Below are positions 25,626 through 60,990 of a stretch of 64,000 nt of DNA, in pieces. The stretch comes from Eledone cirrhosa (lineage: Eukaryota). A program made the translations under genes and the position numbers. The stretch spans positions 93,682,001 through 93,746,000 of the forward strand of contig OZ024740.1 of NCBI GenBank assembly GCA_964016885.1, written 5' to 3'. How positions within the stretch are numbered: position 1 is the stretch's first letter; each line of letters starts with the position of its first letter. The notes under the pieces were generated by a model. That model worked only from the letters and a program-made list of their open reading frames with translations. It had not been told where the DNA came from and made no database searches.

Positions 25626-27144
25626 AAAAAACCCTGGTCTCCCTGGATTTTTTCATTCTGATGATTGAACGCAATTTGTTTTGCTTTTAAGAAACCACTG
25701 GTGAATGGAATAATTGCCTTATGTTGTTTATTACATAACTATATATATAAATATGTATATATCATATTGTATTCTATATTGTTATTTTATTGTATATTGC
25801 ATTTTTATTGTATGTTGTATATTTATTTTACGGTTTTGTTTATATATGTGTATGTGTGAGCTTGTGTGTGTAAGCACATATCCATATGTGCATGTGTGTA
25901 CATGTGGGTGTCCGTGTGCGTATGTGTATATATATATATGTGTGTATGTGTGTGTATATGTATATATGTGTATGTATGTGTATATGTGTATGTATGTGTA
26001 TGCATATGTGTGTGCGTATGTGTTCGTCTGTGTTTGCATGTGTGTGTGTGTGTGTACACATATATACAGATGTGTGTATAAGCGTGTATGTGTATGTGTA
26101 TATATATATATGTATATATGTATATGCATACATATATGTATATATGTATGTGTGTGTGTATGTATGCGTGTCTATGTGTGGGTGTCTATCTACACACACA
26201 TGTATATCCATGGTGTGTGTATCTTTCAGTTGAGGGGGCGTACGTACACCCACATAGGATGGGTTTGTATATAAGTTTATATGCGGGTACATGTAATTGT
26301 GTGTAGATATATGTACAGGTCTGTATCTGTGCGTGTATGTGTGCTTATGAGTTTGGAAGTGTGTCTGTCTGTGATGCCTATCCATGAGGATATGCCTGTA
26401 TGTGTGAGAGTGTGTCTATGTATGTGTCTGAGAGTGTTTGTGTATATATGTGCAGATGTGTCTGAACGCCGATATGTGTCCTTGAATGCGTGTACGTGTG
26501 TGTCTGCGCGAGTGCGCACGTGTGCGTGCGTGTGAGACCGGATGTAAGGGGCTGTATAGGTAGGTGCCAATAGGCATGTGGGTGTGGGTGTACTTGCGTA
26601 TGTGTAAGAGAGGAGGGTGTGTGTGTATATATATGTGCATGGGGGTATGTGTGTCTACACATGTGTGCGTACATATGAGTATGCATGCATGTGCATGTGT
26701 GCCTGCGTCTGTGTATATGTGTGTTGGTAGTTGTGTGTGTGTGTATACGTGGGTAAATACTCGGGAGTGTGAACAGACGTGTGAGATACCAACCCAGCAT
26801 GGCTCCATTGAAGTGTGAGGGACGGAATACGGCTGATAACCAGTGTAGCAGTAAATAGTGAACAGAATGTATGATGACGTAGAAAAACAACAGCCAATGG
26901 CATGACAAGAGTGGAAGATGTTATTTTTTCAGGTGGCTTTTGATGATAACACCCCAATGAGAGAATTTGCTCCGAAAAGATTTCATGTGTCCCAAGGAAC
27001 CTGCAGCCGAAGAATCAGCCAGATCCATACAGTGATAATGTCTCAAGCTATCTGCCGGCGAAACAATTGTAACACGCAATAAACTGAGTCCAGATGCCAC
27101 ACTGATTTTTAGTTTTCTTATACTCTCTCTCTATATATATATAT

Positions 27145-27876
27145 TAGTAAAAAGGAAAAGAAAATGCTGACAAATATTCCCAGTGAAAAATAGTTTAATT
27201 ATGAATAAGTATAAATTAGTCATAATTATTAGTTAGTGTTCAGTTTTAGGTTTAAGTTTCTACCGGTTACACATTTCTTATGCTTTTCAAAAATAATTTT
27301 GAGATAGAGTGCTACACACACACAAACACACACATACACACACACACACTCACACACACACACACGTATTTGTCTTAATAGACACATGAACTGTTGACCT
27401 CTCAACATGACTGCAACTCAATCAGGCGGAAAAGGGCACTCTTCGACAAACCTACAAATGGCGCGAAACCAGTTCGCGCTAAAATCAATTTAAACATTCA
27501 CGTGACCTCTACCAACCAATTCAGATTGTTTTGACTGTAAGAATTTTTGCAACACGAATTGGCACAACATTTATAGTGCTTAATCACGTGACATTCAACA
27601 ACCAACCAAATCTTAATAGATCCCAAGACACTTTTTTCACATAAAACAGGAGGAATTTCCAAAACAGATCAGATTAGAGCAAATATCACGAGCACTCTAT
27701 CTCAAAATTATTTTTGAAAAGCATAAGAAATGCGCAACCGGTAAAAACTTAAAACTAAATCTGAATACTAACTAATACTTATTACTAATTTATACTTATT
27801 CCTAATTAAACTATTTTTCACTGGGAAAAATGTGTCAGTCCTTTCTTTTCTTTTTTACTAATATATCGTGTGTCAC

Positions 27877-27880
<4 letters not shown>
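27145..27880. mobile_element. Neptune-family pseudo-LTR pair: short inverted copy (27145-27312) plus longer direct copy (27313-27880)
   Basis: Homologous to 34400-34942 and 51690-52582; HHR variant at 27711-27746. Confidence 0.85.
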
Positions 27881-27942
<62 letters not shown>

Positions 27943-27973
27943 AGATTTGAATGGATACAGTTTAGTTGAAAGG

Positions 27974-31685: not shown

Positions 31686-34600
31686 ATAGAGGTGTTACAC
31701 ACAAGGACAGACAAAAACAGAAGCCAAACCTCAACAAGAAAGAATGGCAAGAATTAAATAGATTAAAAACCGACAGAACCAATTAAAGAGGCTGATAAAG
31801 GGAGTACAGTAGTCCTAATGGAGACATAATTCTATATCAACTTAGCGCTCTCCACCTTGGAAAACGAAACATACTACGAAAAGGGTGAACACTACAATCA
31901 ACAGAAAATTATGAGAAACCTAAAAACTCTGATCAACCAATACAAAGAAGGACTCACTAACAAGGAATTCAGCTTCATCAAAGACTTCACAAGTAAATCC
32001 AGCCTTTTCTACGGTATCCCTAAAGTACATAAAAGCGAATTAATAAGTAAGGCATGCAAGGAAGCCACATACATAGTCATCAATGTCCCCTCACCCAATG
32101 ATCTCATATTAAGACCTATAATAGCAGGCCCCGCTTGCGAAAGCCACCGTCTTAGCAACTTCATTGATACCATTCTCAAGCCTTTTCTCAAATACATCAA
32201 AAGCTATATAAGGGACGACCTAGATATGCTCAATCACCTCCCTAATATGCCATTTTCTGAACAAACCCTACTAGTGACGTTCGATGTAGTCAACTATACT
32301 CCAACATCCCCCACAACCTAGGAATAGAAACTATCCAATTCTGGCTGGATAATTACCACAATGAACTCTCACCACGCATCAAAAAATAATTCGTGATATA
32401 GGGACTCAAATTTATCTTGGAGAACAATTACTTCGTTTTCAATAACAAACCCTACAGGCAGAAATCTGGGACCGCTATGGTAACGAAAACAGCCCCCACT
32501 TATGCCAACCTAGTCATAGGATACCTGGAAATCACCCTCTACACTAAAGTCCTAAACAAATTTGGAAACACTCTCCACTTACACATAGAAAGGAACTGGA
32601 AGCGATAACTAGATGACTGCTTCATTCTTTGGCAAGAAAACATCGAGAAACTTAAAAAATGTCACACCCTTATAAATGGGCTCAACACGAATATTAACTT
32701 CACGTTGGAATACAGCCATCAACAACTCCCCTTCCTCGACATCCTCATTAAATCCATAACAAAACATAGAAACAGACATATACTACAAGCCCACAGACTC
32801 CAAGCAATATCTTCGTTTCAACTCTTGCCACCCTAGACACGTTAAAATTAATATTCCCTACAACTTAGCCAAGAGAATTTGTACTATAGTCTCCAATAAA
32901 AACACCTGCTATTTACGGCTACAAGAACTAAAGGACACACTCATTAGCAGGGACTACCCTGCATCACTAATTGACAATGGAATCCAACGTGCCCTAAAAC
33001 TCAGTACCCAGGACCTTAGACACCCTAAAGTAAATCGACCGAAACTAAAAGCTCTTCCATACATCTCCACACACAACCCCCTCAACAATGAGGCCTTTGC
33101 CACCATCCTCCAGAACATCCCTATGTTGAAAAAGGACCATAGAATGAACCAAATCCTACGAATACACGATATCATAAAGAGCAAAAGACAATCTAAGTCA
33201 ATGAAAAACATCCGAACACATGCCAAAGTACTACCAACCACAACAACGAAACCCACAGTAAAAAAATGCGATAGACCCAACTGTGGCATTTGCATCAACC
33301 TAATAGAGGGTTCGGAATTCTATTTCAAAGAAGGACAACGTTTTATAGTAAAACACAATTTCACATGCGCATCAGAAAATATAATATATGTATTAACTTG
33401 TTCAGGTTGTCGAGAACAATACATATGCCAGACTAAAAACAGCCTCCGCTAACGCATGACTGCCCATAGATCCCAAATTAAAATACCGGAATACAAGAAA
33501 ATACCACTGAGTGAACACATTGATACCTGTGCCGCCCAAAACCATCCCGACTTCAGAATCTTTCCCCTCTACATATTTAAAGATAATGCCACCCACACCC
33601 AGCGCATCAGCAAGGAATCTTACTTTATTAACAAATACAGGACCCCTTCTAAACACTTCTCCCTAAGAGGAACCCACAACATACACACGTCAACATACAT
33701 ACCTACATCAGCATACATCTCTACCCACGTATAAACACAATGACATACATAAACACACATGTTCTATGGTGCAACACAAATATACACAAATTTGCATACC
33801 ATTTGATGCCTATAGATATAAACGTGCGAACACACACACATACATAAACGCACACATGCAACACTGATGGGCACATACATATTTGGGCACAGGTATTCCA
33901 ATACGGCAAGGCCTAATGTATTCACCTTGAAGTACGTACAATCTGGACACACTCCAGATACATATTTGTGCACAGGTATTCCAGTACAGCAAGGCCTAAT
34001 GGATCCCCCTTGCAGTACGTACAATCTGAACACACTCACACACACCTTGGTATTATGCCAATACTATATATCATTTCACGCCTTTTATTATTAAGGTTTT
34101 TGATGTTCTATTGAGAGAATCGATTTTACTGATCATATCGAATAATGTACACCATTTTACCAGAAATAAATACTGGTCCAGCCACACACACACACACACA
34201 TTATCACACACACACACATATATATACACACACACACACGCGTACATTAACATACAAAGAGACATACACACACACACACACACTTCTCCGTATGAGACAA
34301 GAGCTGACAAATATATGTTAACATGTTAAAATATCCCCCACACACTTACAGACACATTCCTACTGACCATCCCTCTACCACAAATTACTCTGCTACACAC
34401 ACACACACACACACACACAAACATACACACTTGTCTTAATAGGCATTTGAACTGTCAACAGGCTGCGGTTCGCACACACATCCCTGCTGACCATTATCAC
34501 GACAACGAACCTCTTTACTACTACTACTACACACGCACACGAATATTTGTTGTGAAATACTTATTTCTCAGTCAGCCGACACAAACCTACATTTGGCGCA

Positions 34601-34938
34601 AAATCAATTTCTTACATTCACATGACCTCTACTGACCAATCAAAATTGTTATGACCACAATCATTTTTGCAACACGAATTGGCGCAAAACTTATTTTAAT
34701 ACCGCTGGAGCCACTTTTTTAACATAAAAATAGGTAGACTTCCCAAAAGTAATCAGATCAGAGCAAACATCACGGACGTTCTATCTCAAAATTATTTTTG
34801 AAAAGCATTAGAAATGCGCAACCAGTAAAACTTAATACCAAAACTGAATACTAACCAATACGATTACTATTTCTCACCTATTCCTAATTAAACTATTTTC
34901 CACTGTGAACAATTTGTCAGCATTTTCTATTCCGTTTA

Positions 34939-34942
<4 letters not shown>
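31681..34942 (+). mobile_element. Neptune-type Penelope-like element, 5'-truncated: RT, Zn linker, GIY-YIG and long 3' UTR/pseudo-LTR (pseudogenised)
   Basis: ADKG, FYGIPKVHK, LRPIIAG, VTFDVV, YRQKSGTAM..APTYANL, WKR..DDCF, LPFLD, YYKPTD; CDRPNCGIC...FTCASENIIYVLTCSGCREQYICQT...R..AH..LSEH; ORF ends ~33665; both ends abut (TA)n. Confidence 0.92.
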
Positions 34943-35020
<78 letters not shown>

Positions 35021-49596: not shown

Positions 49597-52616
<3,020 letters not shown>

Positions 52617-52633
52617 TACATATATATATACAC

Positions 52634-55384: not shown

Positions 55385-58300
55385 GCAATTAACAGCGCTG
55401 CGATCGAATGTGGCTTTTTAGACCAGCCAATGATCTAAAATGTCTTGCACAGAGTCGGCAACCAAAACATTCACTGGGAATAGCCGGCTGTGGTTGAGGT
55501 TCATGTACTTTCGCATGTCGCTTGAGCCCTCCTGCTGATTTACATTCTCTACCAGATGTTTGGCAAGCATGATGAGTAGCATCTCCAACAGCAGCCTGGT
55601 AGTCAACCGCTGGTCTTACTTTATGACTGCGAAGATGACTTTCGAGTCCAGCTTTGATTAGGCAGAGTCTCGGACAGACGCTGCATTATAGCTCCATAGG
55701 AGGATCCTCGCCGTCTGGAAGTGCAACAGCAATGCCCTTCCTCACATCCCGCTTTACTTTCTCGTTTGCGATTCGAGATGCCTCAAAGGCAACTTTTCCC
55801 TCATATACAATCTTTCTTCATTTATTACGATCAGCAGCAATAGTTTCCCATCTATCAGCAGAGATATTAGCGTCTTTCAAAGAGGCTTTCAAGGAATCCT
55901 TATACCTCTTTTCTGGTTTATGTGGCGGTCGTTTTCCTTTAATCAACTCTACATGAAAGAGATGTTTCGGTATTCTAGAATCCTTCATCCTGGATAGGTG
56001 ACCATTCCAACGGAGTCGTTGCTTAAGCACAAGAGCCTCTATACTGTCACACATAGAGCTTTCCAAAATCTCGACATCACTGATGTGGTCCCTCCAGTGA
56101 ACGCCATGGATCCGTGTGAGACACATCTGATGGAAACGCTCCAATTGCTTAAGGTGGTGTCGATATGTTACCCACGTCTCGCAGGCATAGATAAGACAAG
56201 AGAGCACACATGCCTTGTACACCTTTACCTTTGTCCTCCTGCATATGTCTCGCCGACCCGAGAGTCGCCTTTCTAGCTTTCCGAAAGCATCACTTGCTTT
56301 CCTAATCCTAAGTGAGATTTCACTGTCAAGGTTGCCGTATCGATTGACAGTGCTTCCCAGGTAGACAAACAGATCAACCACTCCAAGTCGTTTACCATAC
56401 ACATAGATATTTGGTTCAGTGTACTGCTTACCAGGGGCAGGTTGGTACATGACGACGGTTTTCTTGAGACTGAGAGTCAATCCTAGGGCAGTGCAAGCGT
56501 CAGAAAATGCATTCAAAATGTGTTGCATATCAGTCTCTGTGTGCGCTACAAGATCGCAACATCTGGATACAAGAGGTCTCTTATGATTGACGTAAAAAAT
56601 GTTGTCTTTACAGCAACGCGCCTGATGTTAAATATGCTGTCTGGGGTTCGATATCGGATGTAAACACCATGCTCGCAATTCCTGAATGCAATACAGAAAA
56701 CCATTGCAAAGTATATTGCAAACAGGGTCGGTGCTGGAATATCCCCCTGTTTCACTCCATTTTTTACTGAGATAGGCTCCGACATGTTACTTCCGACATT
56801 AACCCAAGCCTTCATGTCGTCATGGAAATACCTAATTAAAGCAAGGAACTTATCAGGGCAACCAAGTTTCTGGAGAACCTTCGATAATGCATCTCTGTTA
56901 ATATTATCGAAAGCGTTTGTCAGATAGACAAAAACTAGATACAGATCCAAACCTTGTTCCATGCAGTTGCCCTGGAGCTGTCTAGCTGAGAAGATCATAT
57001 CAGTAGTGCCGCGTCCAGCACGAAAACCAGATTGACTCTCAGGAAGAAGACAATATGCAATGTGTCAGCAGACGGTCCAGAGCAGCCTACAAAAAACATT
57101 CTCTACGACAGAAAGCAATGATATACCTCTGTAGTTCTCACACTCATTCCTGTTACCCTTTCCCTTGTACAAAACCGACCACCATTACTGCATCTCTTCA
57201 GTCCTCAGGTACGGATTCATTAACCCATATGCTGTCAAAGATAGAGTGAAGATGTTGCGGGAGTCTCTCACCACCATATTGTAGGAGCTCAGCATGTATG
57301 CCATCCATACCTGGAGACCTTCCACTGTTCAGCTTCGAGATAGCCACTGCAACCTCCACAAGCGTTGGAGGTTCTGCGAGAGCTACTTTCACAGAACTTT
57401 CTGGAATGAGATTGAGGAAATCTTCACTGACGACAGACGGCTGATTCAAAAGATCATCAAAGTGAGCTCACCACCTTCGTAGAATTTCCTTGTGAGTCAC
57501 GAAGAATTTCTTTGCCATCCTTGCTGCGAAGCGGTGTCACCAGAGAAGACGGTCCATAAACCTCACGCAAGAAACTGTACAACAGTTTTGTGTTATTGGA
57601 ATCTGACGCAGTTTGTATCTCACCAGCCTTCTCACTCCACCACTGATCCTTCATCTGAGAAAGACTCCGCCTAACACGTGATTTTACATCCTTGAGTTCC
57701 TCATGCAACGTATTCCTCTCCTGTGTTTTTGCCGTCAAGTAGCCAGACAGAGCACGCCTCTTATCAGCCAACATGTCTTCTATATGTACATCATTCTCAT
57801 TGAACCAGTCCTGATATTTTCTCTGCACCAATCCCAGAACACGCCTGCCTACATCATAAACCGACTTTTTAAGGGTCGGCCAATCCTCACCAAGATCTGC
57901 AGCACGCATCTCTTCTTCGAATGTCCTCTTCACATGTTTATCCTTAAGACGAGCAGCATTCAATATGTTGGGCATGGCAACACCAGGAGCCCGGATTTTA
58001 CGTTTAGTGATTAGTTTCACTTTTGCGCGTACCAGGCGGTGGTCCGTCCAGCACTCAGCTCCTCGAAGAGCAGGAACACACTTCACATCCTGTCTGTCAC
58101 GCATCCTGACTAGGACGTAGTTCAAAATATGCCATTCCTTAGATGCAGGATGCATCCATGTGGTCTTGAATTTGTTCTTTTGTTGGCACATGGTGTTGCT
58201 AACACGCAGATCCAGCTCCTCACACATCTGCAGCAGGAGCATACCATTGTTGTTACACTTTCCCGCCCCATGCCTTCCGATTACATTCCATGTGTTAAAA

Positions 58301-58870
58301 TCCCTACCCACTCTAGCATTAACGTCACCAAGTACGATGACTTTGTCTGCCTGAGGGTTATTAAAACTCCTTTCAAGGCATGGTAAAAGGACACTTTTTC
58401 TTCATCGACAGAATTCATAGTTGGAGCATACACACTCACCAGGGCCGCATATCTTCCTTTGTCCAGCGGAATTCTCATGGACCTAAGACGCGCACTAATC
58501 CCAACTGGGTATTCTTATAATGTATTCACAAGAACTGTCTTAACAGCAAATCCTACCCCAGCCTCTCTTCTGGTTCCTTCATCTCTTCCTTTCCAGAAGA
58601 ATGAATATTTTCCACAAAATTCTGTAAGATGACCATCTCCAGCTAACCTCGTCTCAGATAAAGCCATGATGTCAAGATCGTAACGTCGAAGCTCCTTTGC
58701 AACAAGAGCAGTCCTTCGTTCAGGACGCTCCAATGTATCCCTGTCAAGCAGCGTCCGTACGTTCCAGCAGCCAAGACTAAATGGCTTCTTTGGCTCTATT
58801 ACAATGGCACGATGACGAGCGGGCCCTGGCTGTGATAACCTATGGCCCCTGCGCTTTTTGCCAATTATCT
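55385..58870 (-). mobile_element. Near full-length RTE/BovB-like LINE (APE endonuclease + RT + C-terminal C2H2 fingers), pseudogenised
   Basis: WNVRTLLDR...PERRTALVAKELRRYDLDIMALSETRL; SVYAPT; TTWMHP; CWTDHRLV; ESQSGFRAGRGTTDMIF; GVKQGD.PAPTLF; FVYLGS; LIYACETW; (GT)n tail. GC-rich 58995-59282 may be its displaced 5' UTR. Confidence 0.93.
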
Positions 58871-59474
58871 TTTTTGTTCCAGAACCTAAATTGCCAATTA
58901 TCTATTTTATATTGTTCTGGAATATCATTGAATTGGAAAATAAAAAGTAATAATAATAGTAACAATAATAATAATAATTATTATTATTATTATTATTAAT
59001 GCACTCGTGCAATGCCTGTGAGTGACGAATATTTTTTAAAGTGAGGATAGACTGTGCACTGAGCCAATCGCACTCTCTGAGCACAGTAGCCATGACCCGA
59101 AAAGAAGAAAAAATCAACATCATCGGTAACTACTGAGCCGCAGGTTTTATGTCGGAGTTAACCCAGTTTCCTGTGATGCCTTGTCCAAGAAGAATGCCCT
59201 GACAAAGGCTAGGGGTTCTTCACTCCCAGTGGTTTAACTGCGCGATCGGGCATCCAGCCCGTTTATTTCCCTGTCCCCGCGCAAAAAAACAAAAAAAAAA
59301 CATAATTATTGACACTTATACGCACGACATACACACATACGCATACATACGAGCGCTCACACACGCATACATTCGCGCGCACACACATATATATATATAT
59401 ATACACACATATATACACACATACACACACACATATATATCTATATACACATACATACATACAAGCATATATAA

Positions 59475-59660: not shown

Positions 59661-60990
59661 ATGATCATTAAAACGTCCCCAGATGTATGTAACAGCACGG
59701 AGGATCTCCTCAGCAGAATCGGCGTGAGTAACCGATCTGGGGACCTAACAAACTGCATAATAGGCAGTATGGATGTTGTGTCCCTGTATCCATCTATTGA
59801 CGTGGATTTTGCTGTGGAGAAATGCGTAGAAATGATCAGCGAGAGCAAGGTTGAGTTCCGTGGGATTGATACCAGTGAGCTGGGACTTCTACTTAAGCTT
59901 ACCTATAGTAATAGTTACCTAGACACATATGACCTTACCAACCTGTGCCCTACACGACCAGCAAGAGGCAGACCACCTACCATTACCTCAATGGCCAAGA
60001 AAACCCACACAGATAGATGGAACGGGTGGACCAGAGCCATACGGACACCCGAAAACCATGATGAACTGAAGAAAATGATTGCACATGCGGTAGGGGCCAG
60101 CATAAAACTAACCCTTAAGGAACATATGTTCAAATTTAATGGAAAAACATATGCCCAAGAGGAAGGAGCAGCCATTGGTGTTAGCATTGCAGGCGACATA
60201 GCTAACTTATTCATGGTATGGTGGGACAGTAGACTTAAACTTAAACTTAAATAACAATTAGAAGACAGCTTAACCCTGATAATGTACTCCCGCTACGTAG
60301 ATGATATAAACATCGTAGTTAAGAAACCCCCACTAGAGAACAGTCAGGAACTAGAGAAAAACACAATGGAAAGCATCCAGCAAATAGCAAACTCCATCCA
60401 CCCGAGCATTAGAGTTACTATAGACTACCCAATTAGACACCCCAACCATCGATTACCTGTACTAGACACAGAGCTCTGGTTCGATACCATTAACAACCAA
60501 AAACAAATCCTCCATTCTCATTATGCCAAACCCATGACTTCCAAACATATGATCCACCGAAACTCGGTCATTTCGGACCATACCAAAATCAACATACTGA
60601 TTGCGGATTTGGTACGGGTGATGAGAAATGTGTCCCGCATGTGCAACCCCGAAGAACTAGAGAGACACATACAACACTTCATCCACCGTATGAAGTTCTC
60701 TGGCTGCAATCAGAGAGATAGAATCAGAGTGTATAGAGGAGCCAGAACCAAATGGGAAAAAATGGTAAATAATGACATAAATGGGACCTGCCCCTTGTAT
60801 AGGAGCAAATTTTGGAATAGAATAGAAAGAACTAGGAACAAGGCTAATAGAATTAACTCATGGTATGATAGCAATAAATACCAGAGTGTAATGTTCATCG
60901 ATACAACCCCTAGAGGTGAACTAGCCTACAAATTTAGAAGGGCCGTAAGAGAACATAGAAATAAAAATAGAATCTACACACAGAAAAGAT
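59661..60990 (+). mobile_element. Penelope-like RT (fourth type) with a long insertion between motifs A and B'; one in-frame stop; truncated before EN
   Basis: GSMDVVSLYPSID...FKFNGKTYAQEEGAAIGVSIAGDIANLFM...YSRYVDDI...LPVLDTELW...HYAKPM...VMFIDTTPRGEL; ORFs 59661-60254 and 60282-61085 are in the same frame. Confidence 0.88.

What the first reader, a model, noticed from the sequence alone, without database searches (positions are those of the whole stretch)
27711..27746. Neptune pseudo-LTR carries a doubly variant HHR core: UUGAAAA...GCAA (U3:A8 plus C13)
Seen: TTT-TTGAAAA-GCAT aagaa ATGC-GCAA-CCGG-TA-AAA. GCAA rather than GAAA is shared by the copies at 27711, 34795, 49879 (minus) and 52424; the fifth copy (~27258) has GTAA, consistent with CpG-type decay. 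Established: C3-G8 is a tertiary Watson-Crick pair and U3:A8 is a tolerated swap; A13 is nearly invariant. Inference: C13 was present in an actively amplifying master, so it is either a new functional core variant or shows cleavage is dispensable for this family.
Basis: partly seen in the sequence, partly recalled or inferred. Interest (0 to 1): 0.75.

Follow-up and report, generated by a model that had tools for sequence, protein, structure and literature searches.

The report
Worn hammerhead in active Penelope-like retrotransposon
The motif is the hammerhead-ribozyme remnant in the tail of a very abundant, recently active Penelope-like jumping gene; its odd C at core position 13 is fixed across about 11,000 copies and is likely a tolerated weakening of self-cutting rather than a new catalytic design, though cutting was not tested.

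Summary
The sequence is as described. TTGAAAA-GCAT-loop-ATGC-GCAA occurs four times in the window (none expected by chance), plus one decayed inverted copy.

[quoted passage not shown] The motif is about 1.0-1.2 kb past the ORF and about 220 bp before a (TA)n-flanked end.

- **C13 is fixed in family A.** Genome-wide, 10,966 exact copies carry C at position 13 and 153 carry another base.
- **A sister family keeps the normal core.** Family B (55% protein identity) has the homologous motif with U3:A8 but canonical GAAA: 12,495 of 12,555 copies. It differs by compensatory changes in helices I and II, so C13 is derived.
- **C13 sits in a young lineage.** Nine of ten fetched copies with 784-962-codon open frames carry it, and their ORFs are a median 99.7% identical.

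U3:A8 in such elements is already published. Whether C13 still allows cleavage is untested. Published evidence that cleavage is not needed for insertion, and an alternative fold in family A, favour a tolerated defect.

This scan flagged the same motif before on another piece of this genome.

The parts
27711..27746 (+). Hammerhead-like motif, copy 1 (U3:A8, C13; loop TAAGAA sublineage)
27440..27945 (+). 5'-truncated family A 3' end that holds copy 1; it ends in a short GTGT..ACAC tail, then (TC)n/(TA)n. The start is approximate.
   Evidence: 27470-27574 and 27626-27938 match the 34590-35015 copy
27132..27313 (-). Inverted partial family A 3' end with the decayed motif (ATGTGTAACCGGTAG, about 27258-27293)
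   Evidence: 90.9% to 27691-27866 in inverted orientation
31782..33641 (+). Frameshifted, 5'-truncated RT-linker-GIY-YIG coding region of a family A PLE copy
   Evidence: tblastn: 86-94% identity to family A protein, 55% to family B, in three frames
33642..35015 (+). 3' untranslated region of that copy, ending at (TA)n; motif copy 2 lies at 34795-34830 (helix III mutated to CCAG)
49677..50995 (-). 5'-truncated family A copy (last codons of the ORF plus 3' UTR); motif copy 3 lies at 49879-49915. It is one arm of a head-to-head pair.
50995..52630 (+). The other arm of the head-to-head pair. It holds about 123-bp tandem repeats at 51866-52362 and motif copy 4 at 52424-52460 (helix III mutated to ACGG).

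Best explanation
The motif is the minimal type I hammerhead position in the 3' untranslated region of a high-copy Penelope-like retrotransposon family. Its C13 is likely a tolerated, activity-weakening substitution that became fixed because self-cleavage is likely not limiting for this element's copying.

Shown:
- The motif's place in the element.
- Homology to a sister family with the normal GAAA.
- Fixation of C13 in about 11,000 copies.
- Its presence in near-identical copies with open RT-EN frames.

Inferred:
- C13 lowers cleavage.
- The element is reverse-transcribed from RNA that is not cut at this site. Copies run about 220 bp past the site to a (TA)n-flanked end, so a weaker ribozyme costs nothing and may even help.
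- The motif may persist for a non-catalytic reason, or simply because the lineage is young.
For: **Anatomy.** The motif lies about 1.0-1.2 kb 3' of the stop of an RT-CX4CxxC-GIY-YIG ORF in 7 of 7 family A loci examined and in the window copy at 31782-35015.

**Sister family B.** It has 55% protein identity and the homologous motif at the same place with U3:A8 and GAAA. In L032 two direct copies flank a 938-codon frame.

**A versus B.** Core, G10.1-C11.1, the ACCGGT palindrome and A17 are identical. Helix II pair 4 is T-A in A and G-C in B. Helix I pair 2.3-1.3 is T-A in A and C-G in B. Both are compensatory changes.

**Fixed states.** Family A has 10,966 C against 153 non-C. Family B has 12,495 A against 60 non-A, of which 11 are C. 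No canonical C3-G8 family with this helix III exists: 105 hits against 154 for the reversed control.

**Activity with C13.**
- At least four loop and flank sublineages share it.
- In the EN-protein search, over 130 of the 150 scored hits (of 19,042 first-look candidates) had one identical score, and 17 had a 784-codon open frame.
- Nine of 10 fetched copies carry the GCAA motif, with median ORF DNA identity of 99.7%.

**Weak fold.** Helix I in A is three A-U pairs. Predicted folding puts U3-A6 into an alternative UCAAAA/UUUUGA hairpin, whereas the family B dimer folds into the hammerhead dimer.

**Literature.**
- Mutation of A13 gives 10-100-fold inhibition (PMC4075628, passage citing earlier mutagenesis).
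- PLE minimal hammerheads cleave poorly in vitro (PMC4209133, full text).
- Catalytic hammerhead mutants did not affect insertion by a Poseidon PLE in vitro, and no RNA-seq reads ended at its site (PMC11167929, passages).
Against: - No cleavage assay or RNA end data exist for this element, so loss of activity is inferred only.
- The motif minus loop is about 89% identical between A and B, against 60-75% in the 100 nt upstream and about 35% downstream. In the flank-anchored sample no sublineage shows a shared change in core or stems, while the loop and 3' flank vary. This is what a still-selected structure would look like, although the excess is not significant and the anchoring flanks are equally conserved.
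- A13 is reported as less critical than G5, G8, G12 or A14 (PMC4075628), and the Poseidon hammerhead is protein-assisted (PMC11167929), so a C13 core could retain useful activity in vivo.
- A census of copy 5' ends beside the predicted cut site showed the same local share at the site in A (11 of 18 loci) and in B (about 30 of about 48 loci). It gives no sign that C13 changed anything.
Confidence: 0.6

Rival explanations
1. The U3:A8 plus C13 core is a working hammerhead variant. It would still cut, perhaps only as a dimer and with help from the element's protein, and would be kept by selection for RNA processing.
For: - The rest of the core, both G10.1-C11.1 and A15.1-U16.1, the helix III palindrome and H17 are intact in the family state.
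- C13 persisted through several sublineages and into a lineage with open frames.
- The motif is the best-conserved part of the 3' UTR between families A and B, and conservation stops at the predicted cut site.
- A13 mutants are reported as 10-100-fold down, not dead (PMC4075628).
- A PLE hammerhead needed protein to cut (PMC11167929).
Against: - A13 is near invariant in natural hammerheads. No A13C natural variant was found in the papers searched or listed among the tested natural variants (PMC3088659, section 8).
- Helix I is only three A-U pairs, and an alternative hairpin competes for U3-A6.
- PLE minimal hammerheads are already poor cutters (PMC4209133).
- Copies extend past the site, and only 6 copies in the genome end at A17 next to (TA)n.
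Confidence: 0.2
2. In both families the conserved block serves a non-catalytic role. It could be an RNA dimerisation site through the ACCGGU palindrome, a binding site for the element's protein, or part of an internal promoter. Hammerhead chemistry would then be irrelevant, so position 13 is free to vary.
For: - The conserved A-B block is about 135 nt long and extends 100 nt upstream of the motif, well beyond any hammerhead.
- Predicted dimers of both families pair through ACCGGU.
- Hammerhead mutants did not change insertion in vitro for a Poseidon PLE (PMC11167929).
Against: If position 13 were free, family B would not hold A13 in 99.5% of 12,555 copies; yet that figure mostly reflects youth, not selection. 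No direct evidence for any of these roles was obtained. The core letters that a dimerisation or binding role would not obviously need are also conserved.
Confidence: 0.15
3. The likeness to a hammerhead is a chance feature of one amplified repeat and has no ribozyme ancestry.
For: Rfam finds no hammerhead here, at gathering score or at E up to 10. All 11,000 copies descend from one sequence, so copy number adds no independent support.
Against: Rfam equally misses the family B motif, which has a published-type core, so that negative is uninformative. The motif sits where canonical endonuclease-bearing PLEs carry hammerheads (PMC4209133, PMC8557442). Families B and C in the same genome have GAAA with different, still complementary helix II sequences.
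Confidence: 0.03

Closest known systems
Minimal hammerheads of metazoan Penelope-like elements, including the U3-A8 variant of Schistosoma Cercyon (Cervera and De la Pena 2014, PMC4209133; full text read)
   Same: Type I layout with open helix I, a G10.1-C11.1 pair, a tiny palindromic helix III suited to dimers, a short helix I, location in the terminal repeat or 3' end of PLEs, thousands of mostly solitary or inverted copies, and U3-A8 covariation.
   Different: C instead of A at position 13. No unpaired base between positions 9 and 10.1. Helix I is only three A-U pairs.
Family B of the same genome
   Same: Same element architecture and (TA)n-flanked ends. The motif is at the same place. Core, helix III and cut site are identical, and both have U3:A8.
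   Different: GAAA rather than GCAA. Helix II is GCAG/CTGC and helix I is CCTT/AAGG. Protein identity is only 55%. Its predicted dimer fold is the hammerhead dimer.
Poseidon PLE of Anolis carolinensis, PAc (PMC11167929; passages read)
   Same: A PLE whose hammerhead is not needed for insertion in vitro and leaves no RNA-seq ends at the cut site. Reverse transcription starts inside the RNA, leaving a tail signature.
   Different: PAc has a canonical C3-G8 core overlapping the ORF start, and its dispensability was shown by engineered mutants. Here a natural core change is fixed in a high-copy family and nothing was assayed.
Naiad and Chlamys PLEs without canonical hammerheads (Craig et al. 2021, PMC8557442; passages read)
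   Same: Very high copy numbers without a consensus hammerhead, and (TA)n insertion bias.
   Different: Those have an N-terminal endonuclease. This family has the canonical C-terminal endonuclease and a recognisable hammerhead one base away from consensus.
Natural hammerhead core variants (Perreault et al. 2011, PMC3088659; section 8 read)
   Same: Rare natural departures from the core exist, including U3-A8 and an inserted U13a in the GAAA strand. Some retain activity.
   Different: A13C is not among the variants described there.

Membership tests
Hammerhead ribozyme (minimal type I, PLE type) | 5' core strand CUGANGA, with C3-G8 or covarying U3-A8 | tested here: met
   TTGAAAA gives U3, U4, G5, A6, A7, A8, A9. 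U3-A8 is a published natural covariation (PMC3088659, PMC4209133).
Hammerhead ribozyme (minimal type I, PLE type) | 3' core strand G12-A13-A14 followed by A15.1 | tested here: not met
   GCAA has C at position 13, in 10,966 of 11,119 otherwise exact copies.
Hammerhead ribozyme (minimal type I, PLE type) | Helix II closed by G10.1-C11.1 | tested here: met
   GCAT(T)/(A)ATGC forms 4-5 pairs. The fourth pair covaries with family B's GCAG/CTGC.
Hammerhead ribozyme (minimal type I, PLE type) | A15.1-U16.1 and a short palindromic helix III, then H17 | tested here: met
   ACCGGT is a perfect palindrome and is followed by A17. Predicted dimers pair through it.
Hammerhead ribozyme (minimal type I, PLE type) | Helix I between the 5' flank and the sequence after the cut site | tested here: inconclusive
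   Only TTT/AAA can pair in family A, against CCTT/AAGG in family B. Folding prefers an alternative hairpin in A. Published PLE examples go down to 2 pairs (PMC4209133).
Hammerhead ribozyme (minimal type I, PLE type) | Self-cleavage after position 17 | not testable with these tools
   No RNA run with raw reads was available. Genomic end censuses did not discriminate.
Hammerhead ribozyme (minimal type I, PLE type) | Match to Rfam hammerhead covariance models | tested here: inconclusive
   There is no hit for family A, and none for family B's consensus-type motif either. The models do not detect this open, minimal form.
Penelope-like element, canonical EN+ (Neptune/Nematis-type) | Single ORF with RT followed by a C-terminal GIY-YIG endonuclease | tested here: met
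   Pfam RVT_1 and GIY-YIG hits in that order. The window copy matches across 31782-33641.
Penelope-like element, canonical EN+ (Neptune/Nematis-type) | CX2-5CxxC linker upstream of GIY-YIG (Neptune and Nematis, per PMC8557442) | tested here: met
   KKCDRRDCGIC in family A and KKCGRSNCGTC in family B.
Penelope-like element, canonical EN+ (Neptune/Nematis-type) | Tandem or inverted partial copies forming pseudo-LTRs | tested here: met
   L032 has a direct upstream partial copy at 97.9% identity. Inverted arms lie in the window at 27132-27866 and 49677-52630 and in L062.
Penelope-like element, canonical EN+ (Neptune/Nematis-type) | Placement inside the Neptune clade on an RT tree | not tested
   No reference PLE proteins were at hand, so the clade name rests on the linker alone.

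The most novel reading that the evidence does not exclude
A hammerhead with C at position 13 (together with U3:A8) is catalytically competent in vivo, perhaps only as a protein-assisted dimer. It has been maintained by selection through several waves of amplification of an active retrotransposon. That would make it a natural core variant outside the accepted hammerhead consensus.
Probability: 0.17. Interest if true: 0.65.

Novelty: new variant of a known kind. Interest (0 to 1): 0.42.

Why it matters
What hammerheads do for Penelope-like elements is an open question. Here nature has run the comparison inside one genome: two related, very successful families, one with the normal GAAA strand and one with a substitution at a near-invariant core base. 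The substituted family has spread to about 11,000 copies and still has near-identical copies with open frames.

If C13 cripples cleavage, this is in-genome support for the in vitro result that cleavage is not needed for PLE insertion. If C13 still cuts, the accepted hammerhead consensus used in genome searches is too strict. Either way, CUGANGA...GAAA descriptors and Rfam models miss tens of thousands of such motifs in this genome.

Tried and rejected
- **Rfam.** The scans found no hammerhead in the window. A control on family B's motif was also blank, so the result says nothing. A wider Rfam scan of eight loci was swamped by microsatellite matches to microRNA families.
- **RNA evidence.** No RNA holder was listed. 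Laying contigs of four runs gave cover only from one run of unknown kind, and contigs cannot show RNA ends.
- **5' ends at the predicted cut site.** Copies starting at or within a base of position 1.1 next to TA-rich DNA exist in family B (388 overlapping rows; about 30 of about 48 loci in the first 100 rows) and in the young family A sublineage (51 rows; 11 of 18 loci). The local share is the same, the TA before the site invites microhomology with the (TA)n target, and numbers are small. I draw no conclusion.
- **3' ends at A17 joined to (TA)n.** Only 6 in the genome, 1 of type A and 5 of type B.
- **Test for extra constraint on the motif among family A sublineages.** There were 0 shared substitutions in about 50 nt against roughly 3 expected from the upstream flank. 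This is not significant.
- **Pfam on 28 window ORFs.** It found only a LINE near 56.5-58.9 kb. The PLE coding region showed up only by tblastn.
- **Lunse, Weinberg and Breaker 2017 on PLE hammerhead variants.** The paper could not be read; it may describe related core variants.
- **Hammerhead deep-mutagenesis paper (PMC9901934).** The text gave no value for A13C, and I did not open its supplements.

Full report
**Observation.** The stretch 27711-27746 reads TTT-TTGAAAA-GCAT-AAGAA-ATGC-GCAA-CCGG-TA-AAA. The pattern TTGAAAAGCAT-N(3-8)-ATGCGCAA occurs at 27714, 34798, 49888 (minus strand) and 52427, against none in 100 shuffles.

A fifth, inverted copy near 27258-27293 reads ATGTGTAACCGGTAG. It has two C-to-T changes. 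The one at 11.1 is in a CpG. The one at position 13 is not, because C13 is followed by A. Two of the four good copies have a mutated helix III palindrome (CCAG at 34795, ACGG at 52424).

**Mapping onto hammerhead numbering.**
- 5' core strand: U3, U4, G5, A6, A7, A8, A9.
- Helix II: GCAT/ATGC, closed by G10.1-C11.1.
- 3' core strand: G12, C13, A14.
- Helix III and cut site: A15.1-CCGG-U16.1, a perfect ACCGGT palindrome, then A17.

**What the repeat is.** Pfam on 28 long open frames of the window found only a LINE. A GIY-YIG search of the window's own 3.0-Gb genome returned over 10,000 first-look candidates. In the fetched loci the motif lies on the coding strand, about 1.0-1.2 kb past the end of an ORF with RT and GIY-YIG domains.

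The ORF has a CX4CxxC stretch just before the endonuclease. Craig et al. give this linker as typical of the Neptune and Nematis clades (PMC8557442, passages). tblastn then showed that window 31782-33641 is a frameshifted, 5'-truncated copy of this coding region. The stretch 33642-35015 is its 3' untranslated region, ending at (TA)n.

The other window copies are 5'-truncated 3' ends. The pair at 49677-50995 (minus) and 50995-52630 (plus) is joined head to head. A short inverted arm at 27132-27313 faces the copy at about 27440-27945. Partial tandem and inverted copies of this kind are the usual PLE pseudo-LTR arrangement. I did not make an RT tree, so 'Neptune' rests on the linker alone.

**A sister family gives the polarity.** The same loci revealed a second family, B, whose protein is 55% identical to family A's. 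At the same place in its 3' region it carries CCTT-TTGAAAA-GCAG-AAGAA-CTGC-GAAA-CCGG-TA-AAGG. In L032 two direct copies of this motif, 4,979 bp apart, flank a 938-codon frame. The upstream one belongs to a partial tandem copy that is 97.9% identical.

A and B share U3:A8, the whole 5' core strand, G10.1-C11.1, G12, A14, the ACCGGT palindrome and A17. They differ at:
- position 13;
- the fourth helix II pair (T-A in A, G-C in B);
- helix I pair 2.3-1.3 (T-A in A, C-G in B).

The last two are compensatory changes. A single copy of a third type (TTGAAAA-A-AGCAT-ATA-ATGCT-GAAA-CCGGTA), also about 220 bp from a (TA)n-flanked end, again has GAAA. Since hammerheads in general and both relatives have A13, C13 is the derived state.

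**Genome-wide counts.**

| Pattern | Count |
|---|---|
| Family A exact motif, C at 13 | 10,966 |
| Family A exact motif, A, G or T at 13 | 153 |
| Family A anchored on flanks only | 10,183; 97 of the first 100 rows have C13 |
| Family B, exact helix II | 12,555; 60 lack A13, of which 11 have C |
| TTGAAAA...GAAACCGGTA (looser) | 17,544 |
| Canonical CTGANGA...GAAACCGGTH | 105, against 154 for the reversed control |

Each family's state at position 13 is therefore fixed, and U3:A8 is ancestral to both.

**Was C13 in an amplifying master?** Yes.
- The flank-anchored sample shows several sublineages. They differ in loop 2 (TAAGAA, TTAGAA, TTTAGAA, TTTGAA) and in the A/T-rich stretch after the cut site, and all carry C13.
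- A search with 150 residues of the family A endonuclease scored 150 of 19,042 candidates. More than 130 of those had one identical score, and 17 had an open frame of exactly 784 codons.
- Of ten such loci fetched, nine have the GCAA motif 0.9-1.1 kb past the frame. Their ORF DNA is 98.6-100% identical pairwise, with a median of 99.7%.
- Older copies are more diverged. L045 is 94.5% identical to this young lineage in the ORF and about 83% in the last 350 bp. The window copy at 27711 is 81% identical.

So the state persisted through appreciable master-lineage change. I did not check start codons, so 'open frame' is all I claim.

**Does the C13 motif still work as a ribozyme?** Nothing here measures that.

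For a tolerated defect:
- A13 mutations are summarised as 10-100-fold inhibitory (PMC4075628, passage).
- PLE minimal hammerheads cut poorly even as dimers (PMC4209133, full text).
- In a Poseidon PLE, catalytic hammerhead mutants did not affect insertion in vitro, the ribozyme needed protein to cut, and no RNA-seq reads ended at the site (PMC11167929, passages).
- In family A, helix I is reduced to three A-U pairs. Predicted folding places U3-A6 in an alternative hairpin (UCAAAA/UUUUGA). The family B dimer's minimum-energy fold is the hammerhead dimer.
- Copies of both families extend about 180-270 bp past the cut site to their (TA)n-flanked end, so the copied RNA was not cut there. Only 6 copies in the genome end at A17 next to (TA)n.

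For retained function:
- The motif without its loop is about 89% identical between A and B. Identity is 60-75% in the 100 nt upstream and about 35% just downstream, with the drop right at the predicted cut site.
- No family A sublineage shows a shared change in core or stems.
- That excess is not significant, and the wider conserved block suggests some other role as well.

**Attempts at a natural experiment.** I counted copies whose 5' end lies next to TA-rich DNA within 14 nt upstream of a post-site anchor.
- Family B gave 388 overlapping rows. In the first 100 rows I made out about 48 loci, about 30 of them starting at position 1.1 give or take one base. At least nine of those are unambiguous.
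- The young family A sublineage gave 51 rows and 18 loci, 11 of them starting in the A run after the site.

The local share is the same in both families. The TA just before the site could also favour joining to the (TA)n target. The census therefore neither shows nor excludes cleavage, and it shows no effect of C13.

**Databases and prior notes.** Rfam has no hit for either family's motif. Standard searches therefore miss this class.
- U3-A8 is published both in general (PMC3088659, section 8) and for PLEs (PMC4209133).
- I found no paper with 'A13C' and hammerhead.
- None of the passages I read from the papers listed for hammerhead, A13 and G12 mentions a natural C13.
- I could not read Lunse et al. 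2017.

I treat it as a lead and not as support.

**Verdict.** The motif descends from a hammerhead in a canonical endonuclease-bearing PLE. C13 is a derived state fixed in a large and recently active family. Most likely (about 0.6) it is a tolerated weakening, in a system where cleavage is not limiting. A working C13 core remains possible (about 0.2) and can be tested directly with simple constructs.

Noticed in passing
Genome pairs such as L062:1031 (minus) and 1112 (plus); 6 pairs among the first 100 rows: Family A motifs often occur as inverted pairs exactly 111 bp apart. In L062 this is a fold-back. One arm starts 35 nt and the other 45 nt upstream of U3, and only one arm carries the extra 3' tail. 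Family B pairs have variable spacing (51-156 bp).
   Followed up: partly
L032, L045 and relatives; window about 34695-34830: Between families A and B a block of about 135 nt is conserved (60-75% identity). It runs from about 100 nt upstream of the motif to the predicted cut site, where identity falls to about 35%. The upstream part has no assigned role.
   Followed up: partly
Window 27856-27880 and 49700-49745 (minus); L037, L039, L043; family B 3' ends: Some copies carry an extra terminal piece with a GTGT..ACAC inverted repeat (A: CTTGTGTGTTACACCTC; B: CTCGTGTAGGACACCTC) before the (TA)n. Others stop earlier at ACCAATATATA. This resembles the one-sided tail described for PLE insertions.
   Followed up: no
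Genome: A class of copies of both families begins at or within one base of the predicted hammerhead cut site, directly next to TA-rich DNA. In family B at least nine of about 48 loci seen begin unambiguously at position 1.1.
   Followed up: partly
Window 51866-52362, also 50000-50260 and 34593-34685: The family A 3' UTR holds a variable number of tandem units of about 123 bp.
   Followed up: no
Window 56549-57064 and 58518-58901 (minus): A LINE-type element with RVT_1 and an Exo_endo_phos endonuclease.
   Followed up: no
Window 60090-60596 (plus): A weak tblastn match (27% identity) of the family B reverse transcriptase. It points to another, distant RT-bearing element.
   Followed up: no
Genome, rows: G10.1 is changed to C (3 rows) or T (2 rows) in 5 of 100 flank-anchored family A copies from different sublineages. 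This is more often than any other single substitution in the motif.
   Followed up: no
Genome: A small family of about 70 copies reads CTGATGATATCACCGGATTCATACGGAAACCGGTC. It has both hammerhead core strands but no obvious helix II.
   Followed up: no
L031, L034, L035, L046, L047, L049: Other PLE copies with C-terminal GIY-YIG (open frames up to 1,096 codons) show no recognisable hammerhead-like motif within 3 kb downstream. Long microsatellites follow several of them.
   Followed up: partly
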